From: a virus
Length of the DNA: 64,000 nt
Reading direction: 5' to 3' (one strand)
Virus record (IMG/VR): IMGVR_UViG_3300012351_000009
Position numbers and translations under genes: made by a program. Below the pieces are notes generated by a model. The model was not told where the DNA came from. It made no database searches and saw only the letters and a list, made by a program, of their open reading frames with translations. This document shows positions 25,155 to 62,927 of the stretch, one piece after another. The stretch's first letter is position 1, and each line of letters begins with the position of its first letter.

Positions 25155-25650
25155 TTCCCCCAGCAGGCCGGGCTCAGGCAGTCAGAGCGTGGCAGTGCGC
25201 GGCGAGGCATCACAAGGCTGGGCTCGGCAGCCGAGGTAAGGCAAAGCCAGTCAGGGCGCGGCGCAGCCTGGGAGGCGAGGCAGCCGAGGCGAAGCGTGGC
25301 GTTGCCAGTCCAAGCGCGGCTTTGCATGGCCTGGCCTGGCAGTCAAGGCCGGGCGAGGCGCAGCCAGGACAGCTCAGCCTGGCGGCGCGTGGCGTGGTCC
25401 AGCAGGGCGGTCTTGGCTGGGCACCGCGCCGAAAGGCTAGGCGTGGCAGGGCATGGCAGCCGAGGCATGGCGTGACCAGGCGAAGCGCGGCTGGGTACGG
25501 CAGTCAGAGCATGGCCGGGCCTGGCTGGGCATGGCCAGGCAGTCAAGGCAAGGCACGGCCGGGTCTGTCGCGTCCTGGCGAGGCTAGGCAGTCAAGGCAA
25601 GGCAGGGCCGTGCACAGAATGGCCCGGCGAGGCGAGGCGCAGCAGCCAAG
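25155..25650 (+). ncRNA. Array 1: NN-GGC pentamer units separated by AGYC (putative guide-RNA array, VIPR-like)
   Basis: e.g. 25545-25593 AAGGC AAGGC ACGGC CGGGT CTGTC GCGTC CTGGC GAGGC TAGGC AGTC. The repeat is certain; the RNA function is inferred. Confidence 0.7.
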
Positions 25651-25658
25651 ATAAGGGC

Positions 25659-25805
25659 ATGGCTGACGACAAGGACAAGGACGAGGACAAGACCGAGAAG
25701 GTCAAGGAGATCCTGAAGAAGGACGCCAAGGGCGGCTCGCAGAGCACCGACCCCAAGGCGCTGAAGAAGATCCAGAAGCGGACCAAGAAGCCGGGGAAGA
25801 GCTAG
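25659..25805 (+). CDS. 48-aa Lys/Asp-rich small protein directly after array 1
   Basis: MADDKDKDEDKTEKVKEILKKDAKGGSQSTDPKALKKIQKRTKKPGKS; AAGGG RBS; below the ORF-track size cutoff. Confidence 0.55.
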   Translation: MADDKDKDEDKTEKVKEILKKDAKGGSQSTDPKALKKIQKRTKKPGKS

Positions 25806-26029
25806 TACTGCCCCGTCGTCGTCTGCTTCAGGATCTGCGCCGTGGTCAGCGTGTAGGTCGTGTCGACGAAGCCGAAGTCGGTCGTGCCCGCGGCCGGGAT
25901 CGCGCCGTTGCCCATCGTGGCCTCGCTGCTGTCGGCCAGGTCGTGGCCGGACTGGACCAGGGTCGCGTCGGCGGGCACGTAGCTCAGCGCGGTCGGCGTC
26001 CCGCCGTAGACCTGCGGCCAGGTCGCCAT
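25802..26029 (-). CDS. Small structural protein (MATWPQVYGG...)
   Basis: TGATG coupling to the upstream gene. Confidence 0.55.
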   Translation of the reverse strand: MATWPQVYGGTPTALSYVPADATLVQSGHDLADSSEATMGNGAIPAAGTTDFGFVDTTYTLTTAQILKQTTTGQY

Positions 26030-26433
26030 CAGCTGATCCCGAGGGTCATCGCGCCGATGGCGATCGAGAACGTGTCGCCCAGGTTGACGGTCTTGCTCGC
26101 GCTCAGCGCGCCGAACCACAGCCGGTGCGGGGTGCCGGAGCTATCCCACAGCTCGGCGCCCACGATGGTGCTCGCGGGCATGTTGGTCTGGGTCAGCGTG
26201 TTGGAGTTCGAGGTCGCCCCGGCCGCCGCGGCGGCGAAGGTGACCGGGGTGATGCCGGTGACCGCGACGTAGCTGGCCGAGGTCGGCAGCTCGGTGCCGT
26301 TGACCGTGTTCGTGCCGTTGGCCGTCATCAGCCGGGCGTGCAGGTTGCCGGTCGTGGCCACGGGCGCGCCCGAGCCGTTGGCCAGCGAGTACTGCAGCAG
26401 CGAGGTGGCGTGGGCCAGGTCGATGTTCGCCAT
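26029..26433 (-). CDS. Virion structural protein (tail-fibre N-terminal-like)
   Basis: ARLMTA...TELP...YVAV...ELWDSSGTPHRLWFGALSASKTVNLGDTFSIAIG. Confidence 0.65.
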   Translation of the reverse strand: MANIDLAHATSLLQYSLANGSGAPVATTGNLHARLMTANGTNTVNGTELPTSASYVAVTGITPVTFAAAAAGATSNSNTLTQTNMPASTIVGAELWDSSGTPHRLWFGALSASKTVNLGDTFSIAIGAMTLGIS

Positions 26434-26645
26434 CAGGCGACCGCCCCTCGCGCCTTCAGGGCCTCAAGAGCCTGGACGCAGCTGCCGTCCGGGCAGCCCT
26501 CGTCGAGGCAGCACCGGAAGTGACGGCTCTCGACCCTCAGCCCGTCAGGCGGCGAATGCAGGTCGAGCACGGCGACATGGTGGCGGGGCTGGTCGTCGAC
26601 TATCCCGCAGCCGTCGCAGGCGCTGTCAGCACGCGGCTGGTCCAT
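26433..26645 (-). CDS. Small Cys/His metal-binding protein
   Basis: CDGC, HH, HFRCC, GCPDGSC. Confidence 0.6.
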   Translation of the reverse strand: MDQPRADSACDGCGIVDDQPRHHVAVLDLHSPPDGLRVESRHFRCCLDEGCPDGSCVQALEALKARGAVA

Positions 26646-26710
26646 GGGCGCACCTCCTGCTTCTTCCGAGGCGGGAAGAAGCAGGAGCCATCAGGCCAGG
26701 GCGAGGCGGG

Positions 26711-27658: not shown

Positions 27659-27661
27659 GGC

Positions 27662-28015: not shown

Positions 28016-28019
28016 GGCG

Positions 28020-28072
28020 GGTTCTCCCCGGGAAGCTAGAGAAAAGTCTCATACCTTCCCGGGGGAGAATCC
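28020..28072. terminator. GC-rich hairpin at the 3' end of array 2
   Basis: GGTTCTCCCCGGGAAG ... CTTCCCGGGGGAGAATCC. Confidence 0.5.
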
Positions 28073-28084
28073 TCGTACCTGCCC

Positions 28085-28396
28085 CGCCGAGCTTCACCCA
28101 GACGAGACGAGCCTTGCCTCGACTGCCTCGCCGAGCCCTGCGTGGCCTATCCGGGCCTACCCAAGCCGCGCCTTAACCGCCGCGCTGCGCCTCGCCACGG
28201 GGCACCAGGCCATGCCTAGGCTGCCATGCCGGTGCGAGCGTTGCCGGGCCGAGCTTTGCACTGCCCAGGCTGCCTCGCGATCCACGCATAGCCGTGCCTG
28301 GCCACGCAATGCCTCACCTGGACTGCGCTGCCGCACCGGGCCGTACCGGGACGGGCCGTCCTAGCTGTGATAGGCCACACCCAGCCTCGACTGCCT
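28085..28396 (-). ncRNA. Array 2: NN-GGC pentamer units (minus strand)
   Basis: Reverse complement of 28121-28174 = AAGGC GCGGC TTGGG TAGGC CCGGA TAGGC CACGC AGGGC TCGGC GAGGC AGTC. Confidence 0.7.
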
Positions 28397-28420
28397 GGTT
28401 ATTCCTAAGGTACCTTATCA
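28397..28420 (-). promoter_or_regulatory. Extended -10 TGATAAGGT plus CCTTAGGAATAACC, upstream of array 2
   Basis: The same 14-mer follows the -10 at 57739-57761. Confidence 0.6.
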
Positions 28421-30765: not shown

Positions 30766-32814
30766 GTGACCGCCACCGTAAGCCCCGCAGCAGCACCCCG
30801 CACCTTCGCCGACGCCGAGAGCGTCCTGGCCGCATCCCTTCCCGGCTACACCCCGCGCCCCCACCAGCAGGCTCTCGCCGCGGCGATCGAGCAGTCAGTG
30901 GAGCGCGAGGGCATCCTGCTCGCCGAGGCGGGCACCGGCACCGGCAAGTCGCTGGCCGCCCTGGTCGCCGCCATCTTGTCGGGCAAGCGCACCGTCGTGG
31001 CCACCGCCACCAAGGCGCTGCAGAACCAGTACACCGACAAGGACCTGCCGTTCCTGCAGGAACACCTCGGGGTGCCCTTCACCTACGCGCTGCTGAAGGG
31101 CCGCAGCAACTACCCGTGCGCGCAGAAGATCTCCGACCTGGAGCGCCCCACGGCCAGCCAGGCGCAGGTCATCGCCCGGGTCAGGGAGCTGGAAGACGAC
31201 CCGATGGCCATCGTGGACCGCGACGACCTGCCCACGACCGCCGACCGCGAGTGGCAGCAGCTGTCGATGAGCAGCGACGAGTGCCCCGGCGCCAAGGCGT
31301 GCCCGTTCGCCGAGGCCGGCAAGTGCCACTCGTTCCGCGCCAAGGACCGGGCCGCCCGTGCCGACGTCGTGGTCACCAACACCGCCTACCTGGCCGTGGA
31401 CCTGAAGATCCGCCAGCAGACCCTCGGCACGGTCGACCTGCTCGGGGAGTTCGGCCAGCTGATCGTGGACGAGGCCCACAACCTCGATGGCGCCATCACC
31501 AGCGCGCTGTCCGACCGGTTCGCGCTCGGCACCTTCATGCGGCTGTACGGCGATTCCACCAGCTTCCTGCGCGAGGTCCAGGTGCTCAGCCCCCGCGAGT
31601 CCGACCTCGGCTTCGCCGCCCAGACGCTGTGGGACGCGCTGACCGGCACGTACAAGCTCTGGCAGGCCCGGCGCCGCGAGCTGCGCGAGGACGCCGAGAT
31701 CATGCCGGTCACCGAGGTGATGCGCCTGGTCGACTTCGGCGAGGAGCTGCGCTCGGTCGCCGGGGCCGTCCGGGACCTGTGGGAGATCGTGCACTACGTC
31801 AAGCTCGAAGGCGGCCGGGTCGACAAGAACGTCCGCAAGCTGGAGTCCCGGCAGGCGCGCCTGGACCGGCGCCTAACCTCCATGCTCGCCCGGCTGCAGG
31901 CCTTCGCCACCGACGAGGACACCGTGACCATCCGGTGGGTCGAGACCGAGAACGACACGATCTTCGTCCGCGCCGTCCCGGTCAGCCCGGCCCCGTTCCT
32001 GCGCGAGATGGTGTGGGGCCAGATCCCCGCCGTGCTCATGTCCGCCACGCTGGCGCCCGGCAAGACCGCCTTCGGCGATGCCGACTTCAAGTACACCCTG
32101 CGGACGCTGGGCCTGAAGGACCAGGGCGCGGCCACCTTCGAGGCGGGCACCCCGTTCGACTACGCCACGCAGGCCCTGCTGTATGTGCCCGAGGCGAGCG
32201 TGCCGCTGCCCCAGGGCAAGACCCTCGGCGCCTGGCGGATGTACACCCAGCAGGTCACCGAGCACCTGGTCCGCGCCTCCGGCGGCGGCGCGCTGCTGCT
32301 GTTCACCAGCCGCAGCGCGATGAACGAGGCCTGGAAGGCGATGGCCGGCAACCTGGAGCTGGACGGCTTCGAGTGCCTGAAGCAGGGCGATGAGCCGACC
32401 CCGGTGCTGATCCGGAAGTTCAAGGCCGACGGCAACGCGGTCCTGTTCGCGCTGCGCACCTTCTTCGAGGGCGTCGACATCCCCGGTGACGCGCTGCGGC
32501 TGGTCGTGCTCGACAAGCTGCCGTTCCCGGTGCCGACCGACCTGATGTTCAAGGCCCGGTGCGACGCGATCAACAAGGCGGCCGGGCGCGACGTCAGCTT
32601 CCGTGAGCTGTCCATGCCGGTGATGACCCTGCCGTTGATCCAGGCGGCCGGCCGGCTGCTCCGGACCAAGGACGACCGCGGCGTGATCGCGATCCTGGAT
32701 CCGCGGCTGACCAGCAAGGGCTACGGCGCCCAGATCTTGCAGTCGCTGCCCCCGGCCAGGATCACCACCGACCCGCGCGAGGCCGCAGCCTTCATGGCCG
32801 CGGGCCGGTCATGA
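30766..32814 (+). CDS. dinG: DinG/YoaA-family helicase with Fe-S cluster cysteines
   Basis: EAGTGTGKS, ATKALQNQ, LKGRSNYPC, CPGAKACPF...KCH, DEAH, MSATL, LLFTS, FFEGVDIPG, QAAGRLLRT; GTG at 30766 after AGGAGG. Confidence 0.92.
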   Translation: MTATVSPAAAPRTFADAESVLAASLPGYTPRPHQQALAAAIEQSVEREGILLAEAGTGTGKSLAALVAAILSGKRTVVATATKALQNQYTDKDLPFLQEHLGVPFTYALLKGRSNYPCAQKISDLERPTASQAQVIARVRELEDDPMAIVDRDDLPTTADREWQQLSMSSDECPGAKACPFAEAGKCHSFRAKDRAARADVVVTNTAYLAVDLKIRQQTLGTVDLLGEFGQLIVDEAHNLDGAITSALSDRFALGTFMRLYGDSTSFLREVQVLSPRESDLGFAAQTLWDALTGTYKLWQARRRELREDAEIMPVTEVMRLVDFGEELRSVAGAVRDLWEIVHYVKLEGGRVDKNVRKLESRQARLDRRLTSMLARLQAFATDEDTVTIRWVETENDTIFVRAVPVSPAPFLREMVWGQIPAVLMSATLAPGKTAFGDADFKYTLRTLGLKDQGAATFEAGTPFDYATQALLYVPEASVPLPQGKTLGAWRMYTQQVTEHLVRASGGGALLLFTSRSAMNEAWKAMAGNLELDGFECLKQGDEPTPVLIRKFKADGNAVLFALRTFFEGVDIPGDALRLVVLDKLPFPVPTDLMFKARCDAINKAAGRDVSFRELSMPVMTLPLIQAAGRLLRTKDDRGVIAILDPRLTSKGYGAQILQSLPPARITTDPREAAAFMAAGRS

Positions 32815-33284
32815 GCCAGCGCAACAGCCGGGCCGCGAAAGCGGCCCGGCGGGCGGCCCCCAAGCTGAAGGCCCGCTACCCGCTGATGCCGCCCGGGACC
32901 TGCTACGGGTCCTCGACCATCCTGGCCCACTGCTACCCCGGGCTGCGGTACGCCGAGGGCATCCGGGTCATGACCGCCTGGCTGCCCGGCGGCAGGAAGC
33001 ATGTCATCCGCCTGGAGCACGCCTGGAACGTGGACACCGGCACGGGCGAGATCTGGGACTCCACCATGGCCCCCGAAGCGCACGTGCTGGCCATGATGAG
33101 CCAGGTCCGGCTGCGATACGACGAGGGCGCCAGCACGCAAACGCCAGATAGTTACCGGGGATGGTGCGAGGTCGCCGCCGAGGCGACCCAGGGAATGACC
33201 TGGGATGCCAAGCGCCGGTACATCGAAGCCGTCGGCCTCGCCCTGAAGGCCGTGCCGGCGGAAGACTGCGAGAAAGCGTCATGA
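32811..33284 (+). CDS. Hypothetical protein
   Basis: ATGA overlap; YAEG...HAWNVD motif. Confidence 0.65.
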   Translation: MSQRNSRAAKAARRAAPKLKARYPLMPPGTCYGSSTILAHCYPGLRYAEGIRVMTAWLPGGRKHVIRLEHAWNVDTGTGEIWDSTMAPEAHVLAMMSQVRLRYDEGASTQTPDSYRGWCEVAAEATQGMTWDAKRRYIEAVGLALKAVPAEDCEKAS

Positions 33285-33760
33285 GCGATTACATCCTGCA
33301 TGTCATGTCCTATAGCGGCCTTGTCCCCGGAGCCAGCCACTACCGCGGCCGGGTCGAGGGCGAGCACCCCCGGTCGTGCCACGGCGGATCGCACTACAAC
33401 GCCCCGGAGAGCCGCGGCAAGACCACCTGCGAGCAGGGCCACGAGCTGCCCGAGCAGGTGGAGTGGCGGGTCGAGGCCGCCTGGACTGAAGGTCAGTACG
33501 AGCGCTGGGCGGCGGCAGGATTCGAGGGCCCCGGGTACGAGCAGTTCAAGACCGAGCGGGAAGTCATCGACACCGCTGTCAAGCGGTTCCTGGGCCAGCT
33601 GCCCTGCCAGTGGTGGGAGAACCCGGCTACGACCCCGGGCGACCCGGGAGACAAGCTCTGGGCTGGCTGGGTGTCACGCCCGCAAGACCAGGACCTCGTT
33701 GAGGAGAACTGGGGCACCGTGCTCGCCGAGGTGCCCGCCCGGGTCGAGGCCCCGGCCTGA
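33281..33760 (+). CDS. Hypothetical protein (MSDYILHV...)
   Basis: ATGA overlap with the previous gene. Confidence 0.6.
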   Translation: MSDYILHVMSYSGLVPGASHYRGRVEGEHPRSCHGGSHYNAPESRGKTTCEQGHELPEQVEWRVEAAWTEGQYERWAAAGFEGPGYEQFKTEREVIDTAVKRFLGQLPCQWWENPATTPGDPGDKLWAGWVSRPQDQDLVEENWGTVLAEVPARVEAPA

Positions 33761-34194
33761 TGGCCTGGCACCCGACGCTGGACGACATGGAGCGCAGGCC
33801 GGACGGGCCGTACGGCCACGGCCCGCCGCGGAGCCGCGACAACCGCGTGCCCGAGACGCGCGGGACGTTCACCGCACTGGGCCAGCGCCAGTTCTGCTGG
33901 TGCGGCCAGAAGCGACCGCACGACTGGAAGGGCAAGGATGACGGAGCACCCCACCCCCGAGCCGTTCCGGCTGCGGACCAACTGGGACCAGACCCCGGAG
34001 ATGAACGAGGCCTGGACGGCTTACGACGCGATCGCGCGAGCGCTGCCGCAGTGCGAGCACAACGTGGCGTGGGAGAAGGAGAGGCTCGCGGCCAGGGCGG
34101 TCTACCTCAAGACCATGCGGGCACGCGACAAGCTCTGGAATCAGCAGGTCAAGGACGACAAGGCCAAGGCCGAAGCCGAGGAGAAGCCCGGTGA
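33760..34194 (+). CDS. Hypothetical protein; N-terminal part with CWC...HDW
   Basis: TGATG coupling; C-terminal part overlaps the next ORF. Confidence 0.4.
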   Translation: MAWHPTLDDMERRPDGPYGHGPPRSRDNRVPETRGTFTALGQRQFCWCGQKRPHDWKGKDDGAPHPRAVPAADQLGPDPGDERGLDGLRRDRASAAAVRAQRGVGEGEARGQGGLPQDHAGTRQALESAGQGRQGQGRSRGEAR

Positions 34195-34300
34195 GCAAGA
34201 AGAAGACCCGGCGGCACAGCCGCCGGCCCCGCCCCGGCGAGCACGCCAAGCGCGCCGCCCGGCGGGCATCCCGGGCGGCGAGCATCCCGATCCGGGATGA
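33938..34300 (+). CDS. Coiled-coil hypothetical protein
   Basis: Track ORF with AAGGA RBS. Confidence 0.55.
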   Translation: MTEHPTPEPFRLRTNWDQTPEMNEAWTAYDAIARALPQCEHNVAWEKERLAARAVYLKTMRARDKLWNQQVKDDKAKAEAEEKPGEQEEDPAAQPPAPPRRARQARRPAGIPGGEHPDPG

Positions 34301-34345
34301 CGGCGCCGGCGCCCGGGATATCAGCGACCCGCAGCGTCACCACCG

Positions 34346-34678
34346 ATGATCAGGCGCGAGGCCGTGTGCCCCGGCTGCCCGTTCAGCTCCCGGCGCACCG
34401 GGCCGCCGGTCCCGGCTGAGGTCATGGCCACCGTGATGCAGCGGATCCGCAGCGGCGAGGAGTGGATCTGCCACCAGACCTGCGACGGGCCGCGGGTCAC
34501 CCCGGACAGCCAGCTGTGCGCAGGCGCCCCTCAGATCACCCACCAGGCGCTGCCGTCGCAGAAGACCCGGGTGCGGCCGAGCGGGCCCAGCGGGAGCGAC
34601 GCCAGGCCATCGACGAACTGGCCTGCTACCGGGACCACGGCCACCGTGTTGCCTGAGGAGTCCGTGCGCTTGACGTGA
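34346..34678 (+). CDS. Cys/His metal-binding protein (CxxCPF...ICHQT...LCAG; DUF6283-like)
   Basis: CPGCPF, WICHQT, QLCAG. Confidence 0.55.
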   Translation: MIRREAVCPGCPFSSRRTGPPVPAEVMATVMQRIRSGEEWICHQTCDGPRVTPDSQLCAGAPQITHQALPSQKTRVRPSGPSGSDARPSTNWPATGTTATVLPEESVRLT

Positions 34679-35106
34679 TACTGCAGGCCGGCATTCGCAA
34701 GTGCGGTCGGCAATTGCAGGGCAACGTTCCCCGACGTGGCGCTGGCCAGGATGAGCTGGTCGGACAGGGACAGCGCGTAGCTGGCGACGCCGCTGACCAT
34801 GGTCGGCACGAGCCAGCCGGTGATCACGTCGAGGTCGGTGAAGAACACCTGGGCCTGGCCTGGCACCTGGACGCCGACGTCCACCCGCTGCGGGTACGGC
34901 AGCCAGAAGTCCGCGGCGCCGGTCTGGCTGATGAACGGGTTGGTCATCGGGGCGGCCGAGAAGCCATCGGGGTAGACCGGCTGGGTGATCAGCGTGCCCG
35001 GCTGGGTGCCGCCGGACGTCGTGCCGGCCGCGAAGACGCTGATCGTGGCGCCCAGCTGGAGCGCGCCAGCGGGCGACTGGACCGGCGCGTGGTAGTGCGC
35101 TCTCAT
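34531..35106 (-). CDS. Tail-associated structural protein
   Basis: LPTALANAGLQYHVKRTDSSGNTVAVVP...VFCDGSAWWVI tail-fibre-type C-terminus. Confidence 0.65.
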   Translation of the reverse strand: MRAHYHAPVQSPAGALQLGATISVFAAGTTSGGTQPGTLITQPVYPDGFSAAPMTNPFISQTGAADFWLPYPQRVDVGVQVPGQAQVFFTDLDVITGWLVPTMVSGVASYALSLSDQLILASATSGNVALQLPTALANAGLQYHVKRTDSSGNTVAVVPVAGQFVDGLASLPLGPLGRTRVFCDGSAWWVI

Positions 35107-35114
35107 CCGTGCTC

Positions 35115-40745: not shown

Positions 40746-40762
40746 TGCTAGGATCATTGATA
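40746..40762 (+). promoter_or_regulatory. Extended -10 TGCTAGGAT plus CATTGATA, upstream of array 3
   Basis: Recurrent motif. Confidence 0.65.
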
Positions 40763-41213
40763 CGGCAGTCTCGGCTGGGAGGCAGTGCGGGGATCGGCAT
40801 GTCAATGCTCAGCGAGGCAGGGCGTGGTACGGCCGGGCAGTCAGCGCATGGCGATGCTTGGGCCCGGTGTGGCAGTCGAGGCACAGCTCCGCTCGTCAAG
40901 GCCAGGACATCACGGCAGTCGAGGCAGCGCGAGGTTGGGCACGGCGTCGCTCGGCGAGGCAGCCGGCGCGGGGCGGGGTAATGCTTGGCCGAGCGCGGCC
41001 GAGCGCGGCACGGTACGGCCGGGCACGGCAGCCGAGGCTTGGCAAGGCACAGCCGGGATAGGCGTGGCGCGCCGAGGCAGTTTAGGCAGGGAAGGGTTTG
41101 CTTGGATAGCGCGGCTCGGTGCGGCTGGGCAGCCGGGGCGTTGTTTGGACAGGCTAGGCCTGGCACGGCAGTCAAGGCTCGGAGGGCTCAGCGTGACTAA
41201 GCGAGGCAGGCAG
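40762..41213 (+). ncRNA. Array 3: NN-GGC pentamer units
   Basis: 40965-41033 = 13 pentamers + AGCC; several 7-9 pentamer units. Confidence 0.7.
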
Positions 41214-41395
41214 TGAGCCCCGGGGCAGACAGCAAGCAGAAAGGCCTTCCACCCCGTCGTCACTGCGCCAGGGCGCACGATCCGGTCGAGTGGTCCGGCC
41301 GGAGAGTGCGCTGCTGGTACTGCGGGAAAAAGGGCAGGCCCGGGAATTACCTGCTCTATTCAGGGCACGAGCGGGCTCCGGTCCAGATTGTCACG

Positions 41396-43803: not shown

Positions 43804-43859
43804 ACCCGCGAGCCTCTGGGTTATGAGCCCAGCGTGCTACCGAACTGCACCACCCCGCG
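43782..43859 (-). tRNA. Initiator tRNA-fMet (CAT)
   Basis: CGCGGGGTGGTGCAGTTCGGTAGCACGCTGGGCTCATAACCCAGAGGCTCGCGGGTTCAAATCCCGCCCCCGCTACCA: C1:A72-type mismatch, three G:C pairs in the anticodon stem, TTCAAAT T-loop, encoded CCA. Confidence 0.92.
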
Positions 43860-49427: not shown

Positions 49428-49431
49428 AGGG

Positions 49432-50076: not shown

Positions 50077-50113
50077 CCCTCCTCCTTACTTCCCGGGAGT
50101 CCGGCCTGTGCGC

Positions 50114-50127
50114 TATATTCATTGATA
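50114..50127 (+). promoter_or_regulatory. -10 TATATT plus CATTGATA, upstream of array 4
   Basis: Recurrent motif followed by a 14-bp stem-loop. Confidence 0.6.
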
Positions 50128-50172
50128 GGCCTTGCACCAGAGCGAGCACTGGCGCAAGGCCTGTCCTCCTCG

Positions 50173-50400
50173 ATGAGGTTTGGCTTGGCGTGACAAGGCA
50201 TGGACGGCGGGGCCGTCGTGGTGAAGCCGGGCACAACGGAGCATGGCGAGTCCCGGCTCGGCCCGGCAGTCATCGCGAGGCTGGGCTTAACGCGGCTGCG
50301 GATGGCCAGGCGGTCTCGGACAGGAGCGGCTGAGCCAGGCAGGGCCCATCACGGCGGTCAAGGCATGGCTTAGCGGAGCCTGGCACGGCTAGGCCGGCTG
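50173..50400 (+). ncRNA. Array 4: NN-GGC pentamer units
   Basis: 50218-50271 = GTGGT GAAGC CGGGC ACAAC GGAGC ATGGC GAGTC CCGGC TCGGC CCGGC AGTC. Confidence 0.7.
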
Positions 50401-50434
50401 GCGGGCCGTCACGGGGTACCCCGGGGCGGCCCGC
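50400..50434. terminator. Hairpin between array 4 and the convergent gene
   Basis: GCGGGCCG...CGGGGTACCCCG...CGGCCCGC. Confidence 0.5.
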
Positions 50435-50654
50435 TCCCGTCGATGCGTCGATCATCTGCAACCGTGATTCCCGTAGATGGCGCATACACCGGCACGGCCA
50501 GCTTTTCATAGTCGGTCGCGGAGATGTTGTGGACGAGCCGGTACTGGGTCATCGAGAACCCGAACATGTTCACCAGCCTGGCCTCGTCGGCGGGCGGCGG
50601 CAACGGCATCGAGATGGGACAGTCCGCTCCCCACACCGGGCGCGGCGTCGGCAT
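50409..50654 (-). CDS. Small hypothetical protein
   Basis: CAGGAGG RBS, track ORF. Confidence 0.5.
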   Translation of the reverse strand: MPTPRPVWGADCPISMPLPPPADEARLVNMFGFSMTQYRLVHNISATDYEKLAVPVYAPSTGITVADDRRIDGSGPPRGTP

Positions 50655-51943: not shown

Positions 51944-52564
51944 ATGCCATCAGAGAACGCGCAGGGCCAGCCGTACTGCCAGCAGATGTGGTGCACGACT
52001 CTCAGCAAAAGCGAAGAGCCGCCCCGCCTAGCCAGCACCTGGCTGCTCGGCACCGACGGGCATACCTGGCAGCCCTGCTGCGATTTCTGCCTCGGCCGGT
52101 GGGTGAGCCTTACCGCAGCCGGCAGCCTGTCGACTGCGCCGATGTACGCGCCCGAGCCCGCCGCTGCAACCGCTCCCGCAGCTCCCGCGGCTGCCGCAGC
52201 AGCTCCCCAGGGGGTGCTCGCGCGCTACCGCGCCTGGAAGGCCGCCAACCGCACCAGGGCCGACCTGGCCGAGGTCGGCGCGATCTGGGCCGGGGCGGCC
52301 GTCGCGCACCACTACCTGAGCGAGAGCACCCGCAGGGGCAACGAGAAGTCGTACAACAGCCTGATGGGGATCGCGCCGAGGAACAACGCGCAGGCCGGCA
52401 TGTGGCGCCAGGAAGAACGCGCCGAGCAAGCCAGGGTCCGGCACCAGCAGGATGAGATGGCTGCCGACCTGCACGCGATCGCCAGCCAGCAGGGCTCCGG
52501 CGCCGGGGCGCCAGCTTCGCTCCGGCTCCAGCAGGAGGCCAGGGGCCACAGGGGCTACTGGTGA
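51944..52564 (+). CDS. Hypothetical protein
   Basis: Downstream of promoter-like TACCAAGGTTTTTAGATA (51893-51910); GAGGAG RBS. Confidence 0.6.
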   Translation: MPSENAQGQPYCQQMWCTTLSKSEEPPRLASTWLLGTDGHTWQPCCDFCLGRWVSLTAAGSLSTAPMYAPEPAAATAPAAPAAAAAAPQGVLARYRAWKAANRTRADLAEVGAIWAGAAVAHHYLSESTRRGNEKSYNSLMGIAPRNNAQAGMWRQEERAEQARVRHQQDEMAADLHAIASQQGSGAGAPASLRLQQEARGHRGYW

Positions 52565-52827
52565 GCACTGAGACCGTCGTCAACTACGTCGTCGAGTACA
52601 GGCTCGTCCATAGCCCGGAGCGCTGGCTGACCTGGGACCCCTGGGACCCCTGCCCCAGCGAAGAAGGCGCCAGGGCGCTATTCAAAAGCCTGCTAGCCAG
52701 TAAGCGCGCTCGTGGCACTGGCCGAGTCCATTACCGCGTCGTCAAACGCACCGCCGTCATCACCGATGACGTGATACTCGAAGAAGAGCCCGAGGAGCCT
52801 TCCGACCATGAGCGCAGCGCACCCTGA
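52561..52827 (+). CDS. Hypothetical protein
   Basis: GTGA overlap. Confidence 0.55.
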   Translation: MSTETVVNYVVEYRLVHSPERWLTWDPWDPCPSEEGARALFKSLLASKRARGTGRVHYRVVKRTAVITDDVILEEEPEEPSDHERSAP

Positions 52828-53200
52828 CGCACTAAGCCAGATCCTTGACCTCCTGATCACCTGGTGGTGGCTGTCACTGATCTTCGGCGCCGGGATCTAC
52901 GCCGGGATCTACGAGGCGATCCAGAAAGCCTTCGCCTGGCACCACGAGCGCAAGCTCGAAGTCCTCCGGGAGAAAGCCGCGATCGCGGCAGCCGTAGCCA
53001 GGGTCGACGAGCACCACGCGAAGATGGCGCTGCCGTACGTCCCGGCCGCGGCCGTCGAGCCCGGCGCCGGGCCGTGCAAGCACCGCTCGGACGTCGTGCC
53101 CGTCTTCGAGGAGGCAACCGGCAAGCGCCTGGCCTGGTACTGCAAGACATGCGAAACTCAGCTCCCCGCCACGTACGCGATCGGGCCGGAGGACCTGTGA
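52808..53200 (+). CDS. Membrane protein with C-terminal Cys/His motif
   Basis: LLITWWWLSLIFGAGIYAGIY; CKH...CKTC. Confidence 0.6.
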   Translation: MSAAHPDALSQILDLLITWWWLSLIFGAGIYAGIYEAIQKAFAWHHERKLEVLREKAAIAAAVARVDEHHAKMALPYVPAAAVEPGAGPCKHRSDVVPVFEEATGKRLAWYCKTCETQLPATYAIGPEDL

Positions 53201-53232: not shown

Positions 53233-53241
53233 CCCCGGCCG

Positions 53242-53982
53242 CTAGTAGAGGAGCCGGATGGCAAGCATCGGGTACCAGTACCTGTTGTAGGTGTGCCAGC
53301 CGACAGGGGTACCGGTCTTCAGGGCCCCGTATGACACGCCCGGCCACTTCGTCTTGATCTCGGCGTGGCCCCAGCCGGGCCAGATCAGGATGTCGCCCCG
53401 CTGCGCCTGGCTGACCGGGATGATCCTGGCCCGCAGCCTGCCCGAGTAGACGGCTGACCTCAGGTCGTAGGTATCCCTCGGCCAGCTGAGGCGGATGCCG
53501 TTGGCCGGGAGCACGCGCAGGGCCGCGGCGTAGATCGCGCCCGAGCAGTCATAGCCGTATGGCCCGGTCCCGCCCCAGGCGTACGGGCGCCCGTTCTCGT
53601 GCGCCTGCTCCCAGTTGAGCAGCTGGCTGCCGATGCTCGCCCGGGTCGAGGCGTGCGCCACGTCCGACACGAAGACCGTCCCGGCGAATGTCCCGAGAAA
53701 ACAGGCGATGACCAGGACGAATGTCAGGAGCACCCGCTTCGGGTGTCCCTGCTTCCGTCCGACCACCTGACGCGCGACCGATCCTTCTGACGGGGGCCGC
53801 AGCAGCAGCGATTCCTCGCTCCCGGCGACATGCCATTCAATCGGGCTGCCCATTGGCGGCGGAGGTCCCAGCCGGTCCTGGCGGTGATCGCCGAAGGCAG
53901 GCCTTGCCAGCCAGGCGTGCGGGTTGTCGGGCCTGCGGTGCCGGCCGCGAGCCAGGGCAGGCTGATCCAGTGTCATTGTCAT
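53242..53982 (-). CDS. Secreted/membrane NlpC/P60 peptidase
   Basis: Hydrophobic VLLTFVLVIACFLGTFAG; PYAWGGTGPYGYDCSG...GHAE. Confidence 0.8.
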   Translation of the reverse strand: MTMTLDQPALARGRHRRPDNPHAWLARPAFGDHRQDRLGPPPPMGSPIEWHVAGSEESLLLRPPSEGSVARQVVGRKQGHPKRVLLTFVLVIACFLGTFAGTVFVSDVAHASTRASIGSQLLNWEQAHENGRPYAWGGTGPYGYDCSGAIYAAALRVLPANGIRLSWPRDTYDLRSAVYSGRLRARIIPVSQAQRGDILIWPGWGHAEIKTKWPGVSYGALKTGTPVGWHTYNRYWYPMLAIRLLY

Positions 53983-53992
53983 GATCGCTCCC

Positions 53993-54799
53993 TCAGCAGC
54001 CGTCGCTCGGGGACCAGGGCTGGGTGCCGCGGGCCGCGTAGACGGCCGCGAAGACCCGGTTCTGCTCGGCTACGGAGGCGTGGCCGAAGTCAGCCGCACT
54101 GCCGCCGCCGCTAGCCCAGGTTCCGGCGTCGAACTGGTACAGGCCGTAGTGGCCGCTGGCGTTCATCACCTGGGACTGGCCGCCGGACTCACGCTCGACC
54201 ACACACGCCTGGTAGCCGCTGTAGCTGCCGGCGCTGACGTTGCCGCTGTAGCCGCCTGACGAAACGGTCCGGTAGCTGCCGGCGGACTGGCGGGCCGTCG
54301 CGGCTTCATGCCGCAGTGGCGGCGGGGGCGCCGGGATCGCCTGCAGCGCGGCATGAGCCAGCCATGCGTACCCCGGGTGCCAGGGGTCGATCTTGATCAC
54401 CTGGCCGGCCCGCAGGACGTTCGGGTTCGGGATCTTGGCCTTGCTGACCCACCACAGGGCGGGCCACAGGTCGGCGCTGCCGTAGAAGCGTTTCGCCAGG
54501 CTGGACAGCGTGTCGCCGGGCCGGACCGTGTAGTACCACACGGCATTAGCCGGGTGATTTGCTGTCGTGCTGAGCGTGGCAGTGTTCGTGATAGCGGCCC
54601 GCGGGGCGTCCGGAGCCGGGACGAGCTGGGCGTTGGCTACTCCCTGACCTGACGTCACTGCGACGGCGGCGAGAGCGATGGCCGCACTGACCGAAGTGGT
54701 CCCGTGCGGCCGGTATTTGTGGCGCGACCGGTGCCGCGCCTGGTAAGGCCGCGTTCCCCCTACCGCCTTGCGATGCCTCCCCTTATCTGCACCCGACAT
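53993..54799 (-). CDS. rpf: Resuscitation-promoting factor (LysM + Rpf transglycosylase), secreted
   Basis: GRHRK plus signal peptide; YTVRPGDTLSSLA...IPNPNVLRAGQVI (LysM); CVVERESGG...YGLYQFDAGTW...EQNRV...QPW..C. Confidence 0.88.
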   Translation of the reverse strand: MSGADKGRHRKAVGGTRPYQARHRSRHKYRPHGTTSVSAAIALAAVAVTSGQGVANAQLVPAPDAPRAAITNTATLSTTANHPANAVWYYTVRPGDTLSSLAKRFYGSADLWPALWWVSKAKIPNPNVLRAGQVIKIDPWHPGYAWLAHAALQAIPAPPPPLRHEAATARQSAGSYRTVSSGGYSGNVSAGSYSGYQACVVERESGGQSQVMNASGHYGLYQFDAGTWASGGGSAADFGHASVAEQNRVFAAVYAARGTQPWSPSDGC

Positions 54800-54930
54800 G
54801 CCTCTCCCTACGAAGGGTGATGCGCCCCGGACACAGGCCGGCAAGCCGACGCGGGGTCCTGACGCCGATTAAGCACAGGACCGTAACAGCCAGGTCATGA
54901 GCCGGGCAGGGAAATCACAAGATTCCTAGG

Positions 54931-57738: not shown

Positions 57739-57761
57739 TGCTATATTCCTTAGGAATAACC
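57739..57761 (+). promoter_or_regulatory. Extended -10 TGCTATATT plus CCTTAGGAATAACC
   Basis: Drives the small ORF and array 5. Confidence 0.65.
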
Positions 57762-57779
57762 GGAGGGAAAAATGCGGCC

Positions 57780-58043
57780 ATGACAACCCGAACCGCCAAG
57801 CTCGTGCCGTGGTACCACCAGCGGATGGACCAGTGCTCCGCGACGACGGCCAGGAAGGAGCGGTGCAAGTTCAGCGCAAGCTGGAAGGTCCCCGGCATGA
57901 CGAGCATCTACGGCGGGGACATGACAGTCTGCAAACCCCACGCCGACATGCTCACGATGGAGGGATACCAGATCAGGCGCATCCGCCCCAAGAAGGTGAA
58001 CCTGGAGCGCGAGCAGCACGCAGCCCTGCAGAGCGTCAGCTGA
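57780..58043 (+). CDS. Small Cys/His (Zn-binding-like) protein directly upstream of array 5
   Basis: QCSATTARKERC...VCKPH; GGAGGG RBS; stop codon overlaps the first GAGGCAGTC of the array. Confidence 0.6.
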   Translation: MTTRTAKLVPWYHQRMDQCSATTARKERCKFSASWKVPGMTSIYGGDMTVCKPHADMLTMEGYQIRRIRPKKVNLEREQHAALQSVS

Positions 58044-58507
58044 GGCAGTCACGGTGCGGCCCGGATGGGCCCGCCACAGCTAGGCACAGCACGGCAGTCA
58101 AGGCGTGGTTGGCCGGGCCGGGATGGGCCAGGCTCAGCACGGCAGTCATGGCACGTGATCGCACAGCTGGGCTCGCCGCGGTCGCGATCGGCCCGGCAGT
58201 CTTGGCCGGGTATCGCGTGGATTGGTCAGCTGGGTACGGCAGTCGAGGCAAGGCTAGGCCTGGGCATCCAGGCAGGGCCTGGTTAGGCGAGGCAGTTAAG
58301 GCATAGCACTGCTGCTCAGGGCGCGGAAGGGCCGTTAAGGCGTGGCACGGCTTGGACAGGCTTCTCCTGGCAAGGTGTGGCGGGGCCAGGCAGCCCTGGC
58401 CGGGTGAGGCGGGTTTAGGCCTTGCCGGGCGCGGTTTCGCGGGGCCTGGCAGTCCGGGCGTAGCCGGGAGTCGCAAGGCGTGGCTGGTCGAGGCTCGGCT
58501 AGGCAGG
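58042..58507 (+). ncRNA. Array 5: NN-GGC pentamer units
   Basis: 58051-58099 = ACGGT GCGGC CCGGA TGGGC CCGCC ACAGC TAGGC ACAGC ACGGC AGTC. Confidence 0.72.
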
Positions 58508-58531
58508 CTAATTACTCACGTGAGTAATTAG
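58508..58531. promoter_or_regulatory. Perfect 24-bp palindrome (terminator or operator)
   Basis: CTAATTACTCACGTGAGTAATTAG. Confidence 0.6.
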
Positions 58532-59010
58532 CCCCACTCCAGCTCGCTGGCGTCGGCCGGGGACGGGCGGAAACGTCCCGTTCCCGGCCGGAGTCCCGCC
58601 TCGGGCTCACGCGGCGGCGGGGGCTGCGCTACCTGATCAGGCAGCGTCACATGCGCGCCCCGCATCATCATCTCCAGCTCGTCGGCAACCTGCGCCGCGC
58701 TCGTCTTCTCCCACTGGAAGCCGGACATGTCGGCGCCGGTCTCGGGGAAAGCGAAGTCGTCGCCCTGGGGCTTGCCGAAGTGCTCGGGCCAGACCCGGGC
58801 CGGGTCAGCCCGGCCCGCGGCGACCACGGCCCGCAGTGCCGCCTGGAGGCTCTCCTGCTGGCGCTGGATGCCCTCCCGGAAGATCAGGACCGACAGGCAC
58901 AGCTCCTGCACGGGTGACAGCGACGGGCCGCTCAGGAGCCCTCTCCGCCAGGCAAGCTGGATGTCGAGGTCAAGTCCTGCGTCGGCCCCGGCGGGGCCGA
59001 TCCTTTTCCC
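58528..59010 (-). CDS. Tail assembly chaperone, -1 frame extension (gpGT-like)
   Basis: The -1 frame from GGGAAAA reads GKRIGPAGAD...QELCLSVLIFREG... Confidence 0.7.
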   Translation of the reverse strand, partial: GKRIGPAGADAGLDLDIQLAWRRGLLSGPSLSPVQELCLSVLIFREGIQRQQESLQAALRAVVAAGRADPARVWPEHFGKPQGDDFAFPETGADMSGFQWEKTSAAQVADELEMMMRGAHVTLPDQVAQPPPPREPEAGLRPGTGRFRPSPADASELEWG

Positions 59011-59531: not shown

Positions 59532-59536
59532 CGGGC

Positions 59537-60420: not shown

Positions 60421-60501
60421 GGGGTTCCTTCCGTAAGGTCTCATACCTTCCGGGGGCAGCCCTTGAAGCGTGGTAAATTAGCAAGGAATATAGAGAGGGG
60501 C

Positions 60502-61116: not shown

Positions 61117-61349
61117 TGGGCCTCCTCAGCCGCTGGCGCCGGGTGTGCCGGGCCCACGGGGCTGAAAAGGTCTACGACCACGATTTCGATTCGTATCGCT
61201 GCAAGTACTGCGGGCACCGCCTCAGGACGCACGGTAAGGAGCCGGTAGCGACCCGGATGATGCCGATGCGGCGCTGGATCCCCGAGCTGGCCGGGCGGCG
61301 CTGGGCCAGGCGCACCAGGGCCGGCAGCACCCGGCTCAGCTCGCGGTGA
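61116..61349 (+). CDS. Small Cys/His protein
   Basis: CRAH...CKYC; TGATG coupling. Confidence 0.5.
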   Translation: MGLLSRWRRVCRAHGAEKVYDHDFDSYRCKYCGHRLRTHGKEPVATRMMPMRRWIPELAGRRWARRTRAGSTRLSSR

Positions 61350-61534
61350 CCCACCGCAAGGACAAGGCCGAGGAGCAGGCCATCGCGCTGCTGGCGCGCG
61401 TAGTGGCGATGTCTGTCGCTGATCGCGACGCCCTGCCCGGCTCCGCAGTCAGGCACGTCAAGGCGGCCCTCACCATCATGAGGAAGAGGCGGAGGCCTAC
61501 ATCCCGGTCAGGGGCGAGTACTGATTCGAGTTGA
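61346..61534 (+). CDS. Small basic protein
   Basis: GTGA overlap. Confidence 0.45.
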   Translation: MTHRKDKAEEQAIALLARVVAMSVADRDALPGSAVRHVKAALTIMRKRRRPTSRSGASTDSS

Positions 61535-62030
61535 GCGGGATGTAGTGCGTGTAGGCCGCGGTGATTCCCTTGGTCACGGCCAGCGCCCCGACGGTTACCG
61601 TGTCGCCGTCGTTGACATCGACGACCACCACGTTCTGGTACAGCTTGCCGCGCCAGGCGCCCGGGTTGCTCGCGGTGCCCGGCGGCTTGATGATCAGCGA
61701 GGCCGTCACGTACTGCGGGTTGGCGGCCAGGGCGGCGAAGATGTCGACGATCGACCAGGTGCCGGCCAGGCCGGCCAGCTGCCACCAGACCGGCTGGTTC
61801 CACAGCTCGCGGATCGTCAGCATCAGCGTGCCGCCGGCCAGCACGCGCGAGGTCGCGATCTCCACCGGGTGCGTGGCGCCGATCGGCTGGATGAACTGGA
61901 ACGGCTGGCCGGCGTCGGAGAAGGCCCGCTGGCCGGAGTCCTCCCAGCCCTCGCAGAAGGCGATCGGCTGGTTGTTGTAAGACAACACGGTGTAACCGCT
62001 GCCTACCACCCTCACGAGCGTCTTGGCCAT
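61497..62030 (-). CDS. Tail tube protein
   Basis: MAKTLVRVVGSGYT...IQPIGATHPVEIAT...GTLMLTIRELWNQPVW; follows the sheath. Confidence 0.8.
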   Translation of the reverse strand: MAKTLVRVVGSGYTVLSYNNQPIAFCEGWEDSGQRAFSDAGQPFQFIQPIGATHPVEIATSRVLAGGTLMLTIRELWNQPVWWQLAGLAGTWSIVDIFAALAANPQYVTASLIIKPPGTASNPGAWRGKLYQNVVVVDVNDGDTVTVGALAVTKGITAAYTHYIPLNSNQYSPLTGM

Positions 62031-62091
62031 CGCGGTCTCCTCCCGAGTCCTTACGCGCACTACTCGTCTCTTCCCGGGCCCGCTGCAGAGC

Positions 62092-62108
62092 TGCTATGAT
62101 TATTGATA
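62092..62108 (+). promoter_or_regulatory. Extended -10 TGCTATGAT plus TATTGATA, upstream of array 6
   Basis: Recurrent motif. Confidence 0.65.
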
Positions 62109-62189
62109 GTCCCTGCTCGGAGCCCGCCAGGTGCGCTGCAGCGGAGGCATACGAAACCCGGAGCCTTTCGACACCATTTAGGCAGTAAT

Positions 62190-62927
62190 CAGTACCGGCT
62201 CCGGGCAGGGCACCGGCAGGAACCAGCTCGGCTTCTCACGGAATAGCAGGGTGTGGCTCGGCATAGCCGTCAGGGTCAGGCTCAGCTTGCCAGGGTGCGC
62301 TGGGCCCGGCAGTCGCCTCGGGGATTGGCATCGCGCGGAGTGCTGGTCGAGGCATGGCAGTCGTCTCGGGGCTTGGCGGGGCAAGGCTAAGGCATGGCAA
62401 GGCTTGGCCGGAGGGCAGTGCTCGGCCGGGCCAGGAGGGCATATCTAGGCGGGGCCGGATGGGCGAGGCGTACCTGGGCGTCGCTCGGCGGGGCCGTCAA
62501 GGCATGGCAACGCCAGGCGCGGCGCAGTATGGCGCGGCCAGGCAGTCGCGGCATGGCATCCCTGGGCCGGGATTGGCAGTGTTTGGCGTGGGCCGCTCGG
62601 CGGTCAAGGCGCGGCGTCGCTCGGCTCGGAACGCAGGGCACAGCAGTCATAGCGCGGAGCGGAATGGCCAGCCTGGCCTGGCAAAGCTGGGCATGGCGCG
62701 GCAGTCGCCGCAGGGCAGAGCAAGGTGCGGCCCGGCGTCGCTCGGCCGGGCACGGCGGTCATAGCTTGGCCAGGAGCGGCAGGGCCAGGATCGGCCCGGC
62801 TAGGTGCGGCTCGGCAGTCGTAGCGCGGCAACGCTGGGCGGAGCGGGGCAGGTTTTGGCATGGCGCGGCAGTTCAGGCGGTGCGGCGCGCAGCCTGGACC
62901 GGCACGGTTCGGCGTGGTGAGGCAGTC
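62190..62927 (+). ncRNA. Array 6: largest NN-GGC pentamer array
   Basis: 62761-62819 = ATAGC TTGGC CAGGA GCGGC AGGGC CAGGA TCGGC CCGGC TAGGT GCGGC TCGGC AGTC. Confidence 0.72.

What the first reader, a model, noticed from the sequence alone, without database searches (positions are those of the whole stretch)
25155..62927. Six dispersed, separately promoted NN-GGC pentamer arrays: a candidate programmable guide-RNA system (VIPR-like)
Seen: six intergenic blocks (about 25155-25650 +, 28085-28396 -, 40762-41213 +, 50173-50400 +, 58042-58507 +, 62190-62927 +) share one grammar. Each is a run of 5-nt units made of a variable dinucleotide plus a near-constant trinucleotide (GGC, with GGT/GGA/AGC/CGC variants), closed by a 4-nt phase-breaking AGYC (sometimes GGTC/AGTT). 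Clean units measure 5n+4 nt (39, 44, 49, 54, 59, 69). The dinucleotide strings differ between units while the scaffold is held, the signature of information stored on a fixed frame rather than slipped-strand microsatellite decay. Each block has its own -10-type promoter and most end at a hairpin or palindrome. Knowledge (recollection, unverified here): phage VIPR systems use RNAs of alternating GGY/NN motifs bound by a RAMP-fold (Cas7-ancestral) protein, with the NN positions reading a gapped dsDNA target in rival phages. Inference: these are dozens of such guides, spread as six cassettes through the virion operon instead of sitting beside the effector. That layout, with a 4-nt punctuation instead of long repeats, may be an undescribed variant.
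Basis: partly seen in the sequence, partly recalled or inferred. Interest (0 to 1): 0.95.

Follow-up and report, generated by a model that had tools for sequence, protein, structure and literature searches.

The report
Dispersed VIPR guide-RNA arrays in phage
The six five-base-repeat blocks are real, non-coding guide-RNA (vrRNA) arrays of a VIPR system, the CRISPR-related phage DNA-silencing system described in 2026; the protein that uses them is encoded elsewhere in the same ~159-kb soil phage, so this is a well-supported new example of a known kind with an unusually scattered layout.

Summary
Observation confirmed. Six intergenic blocks (about 2.6 kb) are the only places in the window with strong 5-nt periodicity. 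They parse into about 44 units of 6-11 NN-GGC pentamers. NN positions are near-random (1.99 bits each) and the scaffold is 76-89% fixed. 32 of 34 unit boundaries are a 4-nt (-1 phase) step, mostly AGTC or AGCC. The blocks do not look coding.

Interpretation supported. A scan of IMG/VR for the same grammar found 44 loci, 22 with an adjacent two-gene module. The larger protein is homologous to the solved SUSP1 Vipr (E 1e-11). A model of this lineage's version has a Cas7/RAMP fold.

No Vipr gene lies in the window. A close relative (G009) carries vipr-vap-array plus dispersed arrays, one in the slot of window array 1. A 307-aa Vipr occurs in the same assemblies as the window's phage. It shares the window's DnaE and primase "longest contig" of 158,810 bp.

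The 4-nt punctuation also occurs in arrays beside vipr. It probably equals the "staggered arrays" of the discovery preprint, so it is not a new grammar. The possibly new part is the layout: separately promoted arrays wedged between late genes, mostly antisense.

No targets were found, and no RNA data exist. This scan has already found VIPR systems on other DNA.

The parts
25027..25044 (+). Promoter-like element of array 1: extended -10 (TGCTATATT), then the box ATTGATAG
   Evidence: The same motif precedes the positionally equivalent array in relative G009.
25164..25650 (+). Array 1: about 10 vrRNA units of NN-GGC pentamers with 4-nt punctuation, after a ~120-nt leader
28079..28410 (-). Array 2, the only array on the - strand: box CCTTAGGAATAAC at 28398-28410, then about 7 units down to 28079
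40746..40763 (+). Promoter-like element of array 3 (TGCTAGGAT-C-ATTGATAC)
40780..41213 (+). Array 3: about 8 units, followed by a hairpin at about 41210-41266
   Evidence: The matching gap is 3-31 nt in array-less relatives.
50111..50128 (+). Promoter-like element of array 4 (CGCTATATT-C-ATTGATAG)
50168..50435 (+). Array 4: about 5 units (50168-50400), then a G+C-rich hairpin
   Evidence: The flanking genes abut in array-less relatives.
57739..58043 (+). Promoter TGCTATATT + CCTTAGGAATAAC, then a small Cys/His-containing ORF (57780-58043, 87 aa) whose stop codon touches the first unit of array 5
   Evidence: A homologous ORF lies upstream of the equivalent array in relative G001. Its function was not tested.
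58047..58591 (+). Array 5: about 10 units (58047-58506), then a perfect palindrome and a second hairpin
   Evidence: The sequence is identical in other soil runs.
62092..62109 (+). Promoter-like element of array 6 (TGCTATGAT-T-ATTGATAG)
62214..62934 (+). Array 6, the largest: about 15 units between the tail tube gene (61497-62060, -) and the tail sheath gene (62935 onward, -)
   Evidence: One unit (62544-62600) is conserved in the equivalent array of G001, with 19 of 22 NN letters the same.

Best explanation
The six blocks are arrays of VIPR guide RNAs (vrRNAs) of the tail-less, back-to-back 'staggered' type. They belong to an uncultivated ~159-kb contractile-tailed phage from soil, probably infecting an actinobacterium.

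Proposed mechanism:
1. Each array is transcribed from its own copy of a promoter class used throughout this phage family: an extended -10 followed by ATTGATAG or CCTTAGGAATAAC.
2. The transcript is divided at the 4-nt punctuation (GGC-AG | YC-NN-GGC) into units of 7-11 pentamers.
3. The phage's own Vipr coats each unit, one protomer per pentamer. Vipr is a 307-aa Cas7-like RAMP protein encoded with an accessory gene and a further 1.3-kb array outside the window.
4. Vipr flips out the GGC and presents the NN pairs.
5. The resulting filament reads double-stranded DNA of the form NN-x-NN-x... (14-22 specified bases) and silences it. By analogy with characterised VIPR systems, the targets would be competing mobile elements.

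Shown here: the grammar, its non-coding nature, its association with Vipr in many phages, the RAMP fold, the conserved promoter boxes, and the insertion of arrays between genes that abut in array-less relatives.

Inferred: transcription, processing at the punctuation, loading by Vipr, the 1-nt-skip rule for this subtype, and the targets.
For: Grammar and information content:
- NN positions are near-uniform in a 68% G+C genome, and the scaffold is 76-89% fixed.
- 32 of 34 boundaries are -1 phase steps.

Not coding:
- G+C is flat across codon phases (0.70-0.72), against 0.60/0.48/0.91 in the phage's genes.
- Stop codons occur in nearly all frames.
- Period-5 power is 2-3 in the arrays against 0.7 in genes.

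Association with Vipr:
- An IMG/VR scan with the punctuation-plus-scaffold pattern gave 44 loci, 42 of them with arrays.
- 22 of these carry a ~227-aa plus ~175-aa gene pair beside the array.
- The 227-aa family matches SUSP1 Vipr by hhalign (97.7%, E 1.7e-12).
- It also matches PDB chain 36pp_D, 'SUSP1 Vipr protein', at E 9.8e-12.

Same lineage:
- G009 has a DnaE 72% identical to the window's and is syntenic with window 455-30332.
- It has vipr, vap and an adjacent array, plus dispersed arrays. One sits in the slot of window array 1 behind the same promoter box.

Same phage:
- Vipr P0010 occurs in six assemblies that also hold exact window proteins.
- Its flanks are syntenic with the G009 vipr locus.
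- P0010, the window's DnaE and the window's primase all report a longest contig of 158,810 bp and the same four sources.
- Its adjacent array uses the same AGTC punctuation. Median unit length is 46 nt there and 49 nt in the window.

Fold: the AlphaFold2 model has pLDDT 82.5. The top 50 Foldseek PDB hits are all Cas7, Csm3, Cmr4 or Cas7-11 (E down to 2e-6).

Insertion: arrays fill gaps that are about 0-290 nt in two complete array-less relatives, G002 and G004; one slot (array 6 in G004) is ~670 nt. Five complete array-less relatives (G002-G006) hold 0-1 pattern matches each.

Orientation: in all six arrays the promoter box lies 5' on the GGC strand.

Selection: the one unit shared with G001 keeps 19 of 22 NN letters although its scaffold triplets differ at several positions.
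Against: - No vipr or vap homologue lies in the 64-kb window (profile search of all six frames).
- Physical linkage to P0010 is inferred from co-occurrence, synteny and an equal contig length. It is not read from contiguous sequence. About 14 kb between the leftward walk (L094) and the vipr locus (L120) was not recovered.
- No target was found. With the 1-nt-skip rule, best matches of 39 window guides and, with arrays masked, of 112 guides from the window, G001, G009 and L120 in ~1 Mb of related phage DNA (both strands) were no better than shuffled guides.
- Five exact-pattern scans of IMG/VR gave nothing.
- One of two scans of 185,579 genomes gave a single hit, in a 35% G+C archaeal contig with skip bases on codon position 2. 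I read it as chance.
- No RNA data exist: only soil DNA runs hold the sequence.
- No conserved 3' tail like that of SUSP1 vrRNAs is present.
- Many scaffold triplets are degenerate (AGC, CGC, GTC and others, about 44% not exactly GGC), so some units may be decayed.
Confidence: 0.85

Rival explanations
1. The window arrays are 'solo' or decoy vrRNAs. They would not serve the phage's own Vipr. Instead they would capture, redirect or titrate the Vipr of a rival phage or prophage in the same host, as described for satellites and VIPR-null SUSP1-like phages.
For: Solo vrRNAs that redirect a foreign Vipr are documented (10.64898/2026.10.15.759431). None of the six arrays is next to a Vipr gene. No targets were found for any guide.
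Against: The same phage most probably encodes Vipr. Its vipr-adjacent array has the same punctuation and unit length. The relative G009 combines vipr with dispersed arrays. Known solo vrRNAs number 1-2 and sit at the site of a deleted vipr locus. Here there are dozens, scattered.
Confidence: 0.07
2. The dispersed blocks act mainly at the DNA or transcription level. They could be silent reservoirs that exchange guide units with the main array by recombination. They could also be antisense or insulator elements that modulate read-through of the late operon. Guide production would be secondary or absent.
For: Five of six arrays are antisense to the late genes and sit exactly at gene junctions. 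Many scaffold triplets are degenerate. Hairpins at array ends could terminate transcription in both directions. Short multi-pentamer blocks recur within array 1 (44-49-nt periods).
Against: Each array has a conserved promoter box on the GGC strand, also kept in relatives. NN positions keep maximal entropy, and the -1 punctuation is kept in 32 of 34 boundaries, as in vipr-adjacent arrays. No window guide is shared with another window array at 80% or more of NN letters. In G001 some arrays are in the sense orientation.
Confidence: 0.05
3. The blocks are translated Gly/Ala/Arg-rich repeat proteins, or decaying slipped-strand microsatellites without function.
For: Long ORFs cross some arrays, for example 25145-25654 (169 aa) and 62394-62951 (185 aa). 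A pentanucleotide repeat can arise by slippage.
Against: G+C is flat across codon phases and stop codons occur in nearly all frames. A period of 5 does not fit codons. NN entropy of 1.99 bits and a regular 4-nt punctuation are not what slippage produces. The same grammar is linked to Vipr genes in 22 unrelated loci.
Confidence: 0.01

Closest known systems
VIPR systems with 'staggered' vrRNA arrays (bioRxiv 10.64898/2026.04.26.720920, fig. S18; seven types defined by Vipr phylogeny, vrRNA architecture and vap gene)
   Same: YNNGG / GGY-NN pentamer tracts run back to back without long tails. The 4-nt step reads as two pentamers sharing one base (GGCAG + GGCNN gives GGCAGGCNN). That fits the legend's '1 nt overlapping positions'. 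Vipr homologue, accessory gene and adjacent array are present in this lineage.
   Different: The punctuation is mostly AGTC or AGCC here, not the AGGC seen in more distant loci. At least six further arrays are scattered 30-90 kb from vipr, each with its own promoter, inside the late operon. The figure and data tables could not be read, so the VIPR type and the identity with fig. S18 are inferred.
Type II VIPR of Escherichia phage SUSP1 (NC_028808; Vipr structure PDB 36pp)
   Same: The Vipr protein is homologous, with a shared RYR..F..W and GVG[DE]WRP..G.FG.F C-terminal core. Guides are of 9-16 (here 7-11) pentamers with conserved GGY and hypervariable NN.
   Different: SUSP1 vrRNAs each end in a ~40-nt structured tail, and four of them flank the vipr-vap1 pair. 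Here there is no tail. The accessory gene is not homologous to vap1 (hhalign probability 0.1%). Y is C rather than U. There are dozens of guides.
Solo or orphan vrRNAs of satellites and VIPR-null SUSP1-like phages (bioRxiv 10.64898/2026.10.15.759431)
   Same: These are also vrRNA genes located away from any vipr gene on a mobile element.
   Different: Those are 1-2 vrRNAs left at a deleted vipr locus or carried by a satellite, and they use a foreign Vipr. Here the phage most probably keeps vipr, and it carries multi-unit arrays at many loci.
CRISPR arrays and class 1 Cas7 backbone filaments
   Same: The backbone protein has a Cas7-like RAMP fold. Multiple arrays occur per genome. One protomer binds per fixed RNA step.
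   Different: There are no repeat-spacer structure, no cas genes and no adaptation module in the window. The guide is non-contiguous, with 2 of every 5 nt informative.

Membership tests
VIPR (Vipr + vrRNA) | vrRNA made of tandem YNNGG / GGY-NN pentamers (at least 4 units, typically 9-16) with conserved GGY and hypervariable NN | tested here: met
   44 segments of 6-11 pentamers, with one of 15. NN entropy is 1.99 bits per position. The scaffold is G 76%, G 89%, C 83% plus T 8%.
VIPR (Vipr + vrRNA) | A Vipr protein (single-RRM RAMP with G-loop and thumb) encoded by the same element | tested here: met
   Not in the window. Vipr P0010 is found in the same six assemblies. It has the same 158,810-bp longest contig as the window's DnaE and primase, and its flanks are syntenic with relative G009. 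It is homologous to SUSP1 Vipr and has a Cas7-like fold. Caveat: linkage is inferred and was not read from contiguous sequence.
VIPR (Vipr + vrRNA) | Compact locus: vipr and a vap gene flanked by the vrRNA genes | tested here: not met
   This holds for the main locus outside the window (L120: vipr 1061-1984, vap 1968-2444, array about 2440-3740). It does not hold for the six window arrays. They lie between replication, lysis and tail genes, with no vipr or vap nearby.
VIPR type II (SUSP1-like) | Invariant structured 3' tail (~40 nt, pseudoknot) after each repeat tract | tested here: not met
   Units are separated by only 4 nt. No Rfam family or conserved tail was detected.
VIPR staggered arrays | Consecutive vrRNAs abut or overlap by 1 nt, so that the end of one marks the start of the next | tested here: met
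   The -1 phase step occurs at 32 of 34 boundaries in the window. In vipr-adjacent arrays of other phages it occurs at 7 of 7, 12 of 12, 17 of 18 and 15 of 16 boundaries. Only the figure legend could be read.
VIPR (Vipr + vrRNA) | vrRNAs are expressed, processed and bound by Vipr | not testable with these tools
   Only soil DNA runs hold the sequence. Promoter boxes and terminal hairpins are indirect support.
VIPR (Vipr + vrRNA) | NN pairs specify a DNA target by the 1-nt-skip rule (NN-x-NN-x) | tested here: inconclusive
   No enrichment over shuffled guides in ~1 Mb of related phage DNA, both strands. Five exact scans of IMG/VR were empty. One probable chance hit turned up in the genome collection. 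Only exact matches could be searched at scale.
CRISPR-Cas | Repeat-spacer array with associated cas genes | tested here: not met
   There are no 25-40-nt direct repeats and no cas domains among the annotated genes.

The most novel reading that the evidence does not exclude
This phage lineage has turned VIPR into a genome-wide arsenal. Besides the canonical vipr-vap-array locus, it carries many vrRNA arrays, each under its own promoter: six in this window, and others upstream of the sheath gene in relative G001 and elsewhere in G009. In this window they sit at junctions of replication, lysis and late structural genes, mostly antisense, and all use one phage-wide promoter class. If such a multi-locus layout within a Vipr-encoding phage is not in the preprints' unread data tables, it is a new organisational variant. 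It would tie guide production to the phage's own transcription programme. It might also let the arrays act as insulators or terminators within the late operon.
Probability: 0.4. Interest if true: 0.55.

Novelty: new member of a known kind. Interest (0 to 1): 0.45.

Why it matters
VIPR was described only in 2026 and mostly from compact two-gene loci. This case shows that a large soil phage can devote about 4% of a 64-kb stretch, roughly 40 guides in the window alone, to vrRNA arrays placed far from the effector gene. Surveys that look only beside vipr genes will therefore undercount guides. Orphan-looking arrays need the whole genome before they are called orphan.

The case also gives a natural comparison set. 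G009 and G001 are array-bearing. G002-G006 are complete relatives without arrays. This set can be used to study how arrays are gained at gene junctions. It can also ask whether antisense arrays affect late-gene expression.

The shared AG-N-C punctuation across distant Vipr-linked arrays points to a defined processing or filament-start signal that can be tested at the bench.

Tried and rejected
1. Vipr inside the window.
- tblastn with SUSP1 Vipr and vap1 gave nothing.
- Profile HMMs of the Vipr and vap families, run on all six frames of the window, G001, G002 and G004, gave nothing.
- The window-specific + strand islands (32811-35118 and 51944-53200) look like small Cys-rich or membrane 'moron' genes, not RAMPs.
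- The 234-aa gene between arrays in G001 belongs to a PHROG family (phrog_2748, function unknown) and has homologues at the same position in the array-less relatives. I read it as a conserved virion-module gene, not Vipr.

2. Finding the window's own record.
- Exact 31-mers were absent from IMG/VR and from the JGI metagenome collection.
- No genome is held for the window.
- Walking left by exact proteins stopped at a 6.8-kb contig.

3. Targets.
- Local gapped scans with skips of 0, 1 and 2 nt were no better than shuffles.
- Seven collection scans gave one implausible hit.

4. Expression and variation.
- No RNA runs hold the sequence.
- Contigs from four other soil runs carry identical arrays, with one A>G change at 62642. 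This gives no information on guide turnover within the population.

5. Accessory protein. A confident model (pLDDT 92) has no significant PDB match. It shows only weak winged-helix-like resemblances at E > 0.1, no Pfam family, and no homology to SUSP1 vap1.

6. Known phage relatives. There is no nucleotide match in GenBank phages. DnaE is at most ~34% identical to isolated phages.

7. Known RNA families. Rfam finds only a tRNA.

Full report
**1. What is in the sequence**

The window is 68% G+C. From about 25 kb onward it holds lysis, helicase and contractile-tail genes, almost all on the - strand. These include a GH25 lysin, SNF2 and DinG-like helicases, a baseplate J protein, a tape-measure-sized protein, an Rpf/LysM protein, NlpC/P60 proteins, the tail tube and the tail sheath. 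The left part holds replication genes: DnaE, RecA, Prim-Pol/D5 and a 5'-3' exonuclease.

Lag-5 autocorrelation singles out five of the six reported blocks at more than 3 SD. The sixth parses equally well.

A phase-tracking parse gives 44 segments of at least 6 pentamers. The two variable positions carry 1.99 bits each, about 25% of each base in a 68% G+C genome. The next three positions are G 76%, G 89% and C 83%.

32 of 34 boundaries between long segments shift the phase by exactly -1, through a 4-nt punctuation. This is mostly AGTC or AGCC. Random indels would spread over all four possible shifts.

The blocks do not look coding. G+C is flat across codon phases, stop codons occur in nearly all frames, and period 5 dominates period 3.

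Every array has a conserved -10-like element plus a box on its GGC strand. Stable hairpins follow arrays 2-6. One correction applies: five of the six arrays are antisense to the surrounding late genes.

**2. What it is**

VIPR is real and was published in 2026. Its features as described there are:
- vrRNAs of 9-16 YNNGG units.
- A Vipr RAMP protein and a vap accessory gene.
- A 1-nt-skip targeting rule.
- Seven types.
- 'Staggered arrays' in which consecutive vrRNAs overlap by 1 nt.
- Solo vrRNAs, described in the second preprint.

I tested whether this particular grammar goes with Vipr. I scanned IMG/VR for GGCAGTC followed by four NNGGC units. This gave 44 loci, of which 42 hold pentamer arrays of 0.2-2 kb.

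Clustering their ORFs gave two families present in 22 and 21 loci. These form an adjacent ~227-aa plus ~175-aa gene pair lying next to the array.

The larger family matches SUSP1 Vipr by profile comparison (97.7%, E 1.7e-12). It also matches the PDB chain named 'SUSP1 Vipr protein' (36pp_D, E 9.8e-12). I located the SUSP1 gene myself, next to SUSP1's YNNGG repeats in NC_028808.

Arrays next to these vipr genes use the same -1 punctuation, usually AGGC. AGGC reads as two GGC pentamers sharing one G, which fits the 'staggered' description. The grammar is therefore a genuine VIPR array grammar and is probably already described.

**3. Where the effector is**

No Vipr or vap homologue lies in the window.

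Relatives found through the tail tube protein fall into two groups:
- G001, a 45-kb fragment with a 92% identical tube protein, has seven arrays.
- Five complete 147-166-kb relatives have essentially none.

In two of these array-less relatives (G002, G004) the genes that flank the window's arrays lie about 0-290 nt apart in nearly every slot, ~670 nt in one.

G009 is a 73-kb fragment with a DnaE 72% identical to the window's. It is syntenic with window 455-30332. It carries:
- vipr (E 9e-65 to the family profile), vap and an adjacent 1.2-kb array.
- Further arrays of 2.4, 0.3 and 1.9 kb.

The 1.9-kb array sits in the slot of window array 1, behind the same promoter box.

A homology search with the G009 Vipr found P0010 (307 aa, 68% identical). 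P0010 is encoded in ERZ27253166, ERZ27253229, ERZ27253170, GCA_009772715.1, GCA_009787515.1 and JGI 3300012359. All six assemblies also hold exact window proteins.

The flanks of P0010 are syntenic with the G009 vipr locus. P0010, the window's DnaE and the window's primase each report the same longest contig (158,810 bp) and the same four sources.

I conclude with about 90% confidence that the window's phage encodes this Vipr. By synteny it lies some 30 kb left of the window.

The array next to P0010 has the same AGTC punctuation. Its median unit length is 46 nt, against 49 nt in the window.

An AlphaFold2 model of P0010 has pLDDT 82.5. Its 50 best PDB matches are all Cas7-family subunits.

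**4. How it most likely works**

By homology with the SUSP1 structures, one Vipr protomer binds each pentamer and displaces the GGY. The filament presents 7-11 NN pairs, which read gapped double-stranded DNA.

The steps inferred here, not shown, are:
- Transcription from the conserved promoter boxes.
- Division at the punctuation.
- Loading by P0010.
- Silencing of rival elements.

One orthologous unit shared with G001 keeps 19 of 22 NN letters, although its scaffold triplets differ at several positions. This hints at selection on guide content, but it is a single case.

**5. What failed**

- Targets were not found. Only exact patterns could be searched at scale, so this is weak negative evidence.
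- No RNA data exist.
- The arrays are identical in other soil samples.
- The accessory protein has no informative match.

**6. Verdict**

This is a real, well-supported VIPR guide-array set and a new member of a known kind. The punctuation is not new.

The scattered, individually promoted, mostly antisense placement of arrays in a Vipr-encoding phage may be new. The preprints' main text and the held supplement text (methods and figure legends) do not describe it, but I could not read their data tables.

This scan has already reported VIPR systems, including staggered arrays, on other DNA.

Noticed in passing
window 57780-58043 (+): An 87-aa ORF with Cys/His spacing like a small zinc finger lies directly upstream of array 5, behind the promoter box. 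A homologous ORF lies upstream of the equivalent array in G001. It could be an array-linked accessory factor.
   Followed up: partly
window 43785-43859 (-): A tRNA gene (Rfam 63 bits) lies inside the baseplate and tail-fibre region.
   Followed up: no
window 32811-35118 (+) and 51944-53200 (+): Two islands of small + strand genes have no homologues in relatives G002 and G004. They include Cys-rich proteins and one protein with a membrane segment. They look like acquired 'moron' genes inside - strand operons.
   Followed up: partly
window 62642: This is the only variant seen inside an array across other soil runs. An A>G change turns a degenerate AGC scaffold triplet into the consensus GGC.
   Followed up: no
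window 19720-19727 (-); G004 at about 112962 and 126238: The ATTGATAG promoter box also precedes ordinary protein genes, including in an array-less relative. It is therefore a general promoter class of this phage family, not an array-specific signal.
   Followed up: partly
L094 1959-6506 (left of the window start): A 1515-aa protein with an Arr-ms (rifampin ADP-ribosyltransferase-like) domain is encoded a few kb left of the window. G009 has a homologue.
   Followed up: no
window 23464-23686 and 24141-24395: Tandem repeats of 60-nt and 108-nt periods lie inside the 494-aa gene 22935-24419 (-). That gene has a weak adhesin-head-like (DUF2807) match.
   Followed up: no
window 53242-54844 (-): Adjacent LysM-Rpf-like transglycosylase and NlpC/P60 genes lie downstream of the tape-measure-sized gene. 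This pairing is typical of phages of actinobacteria.
   Followed up: no
P0010 residues ~250-307; G009 Vipr C-terminus: The Vipr of this lineage carries a ~60-80-residue acidic, low-confidence C-terminal extension. The ~200-230-aa family members lack it.
   Followed up: no
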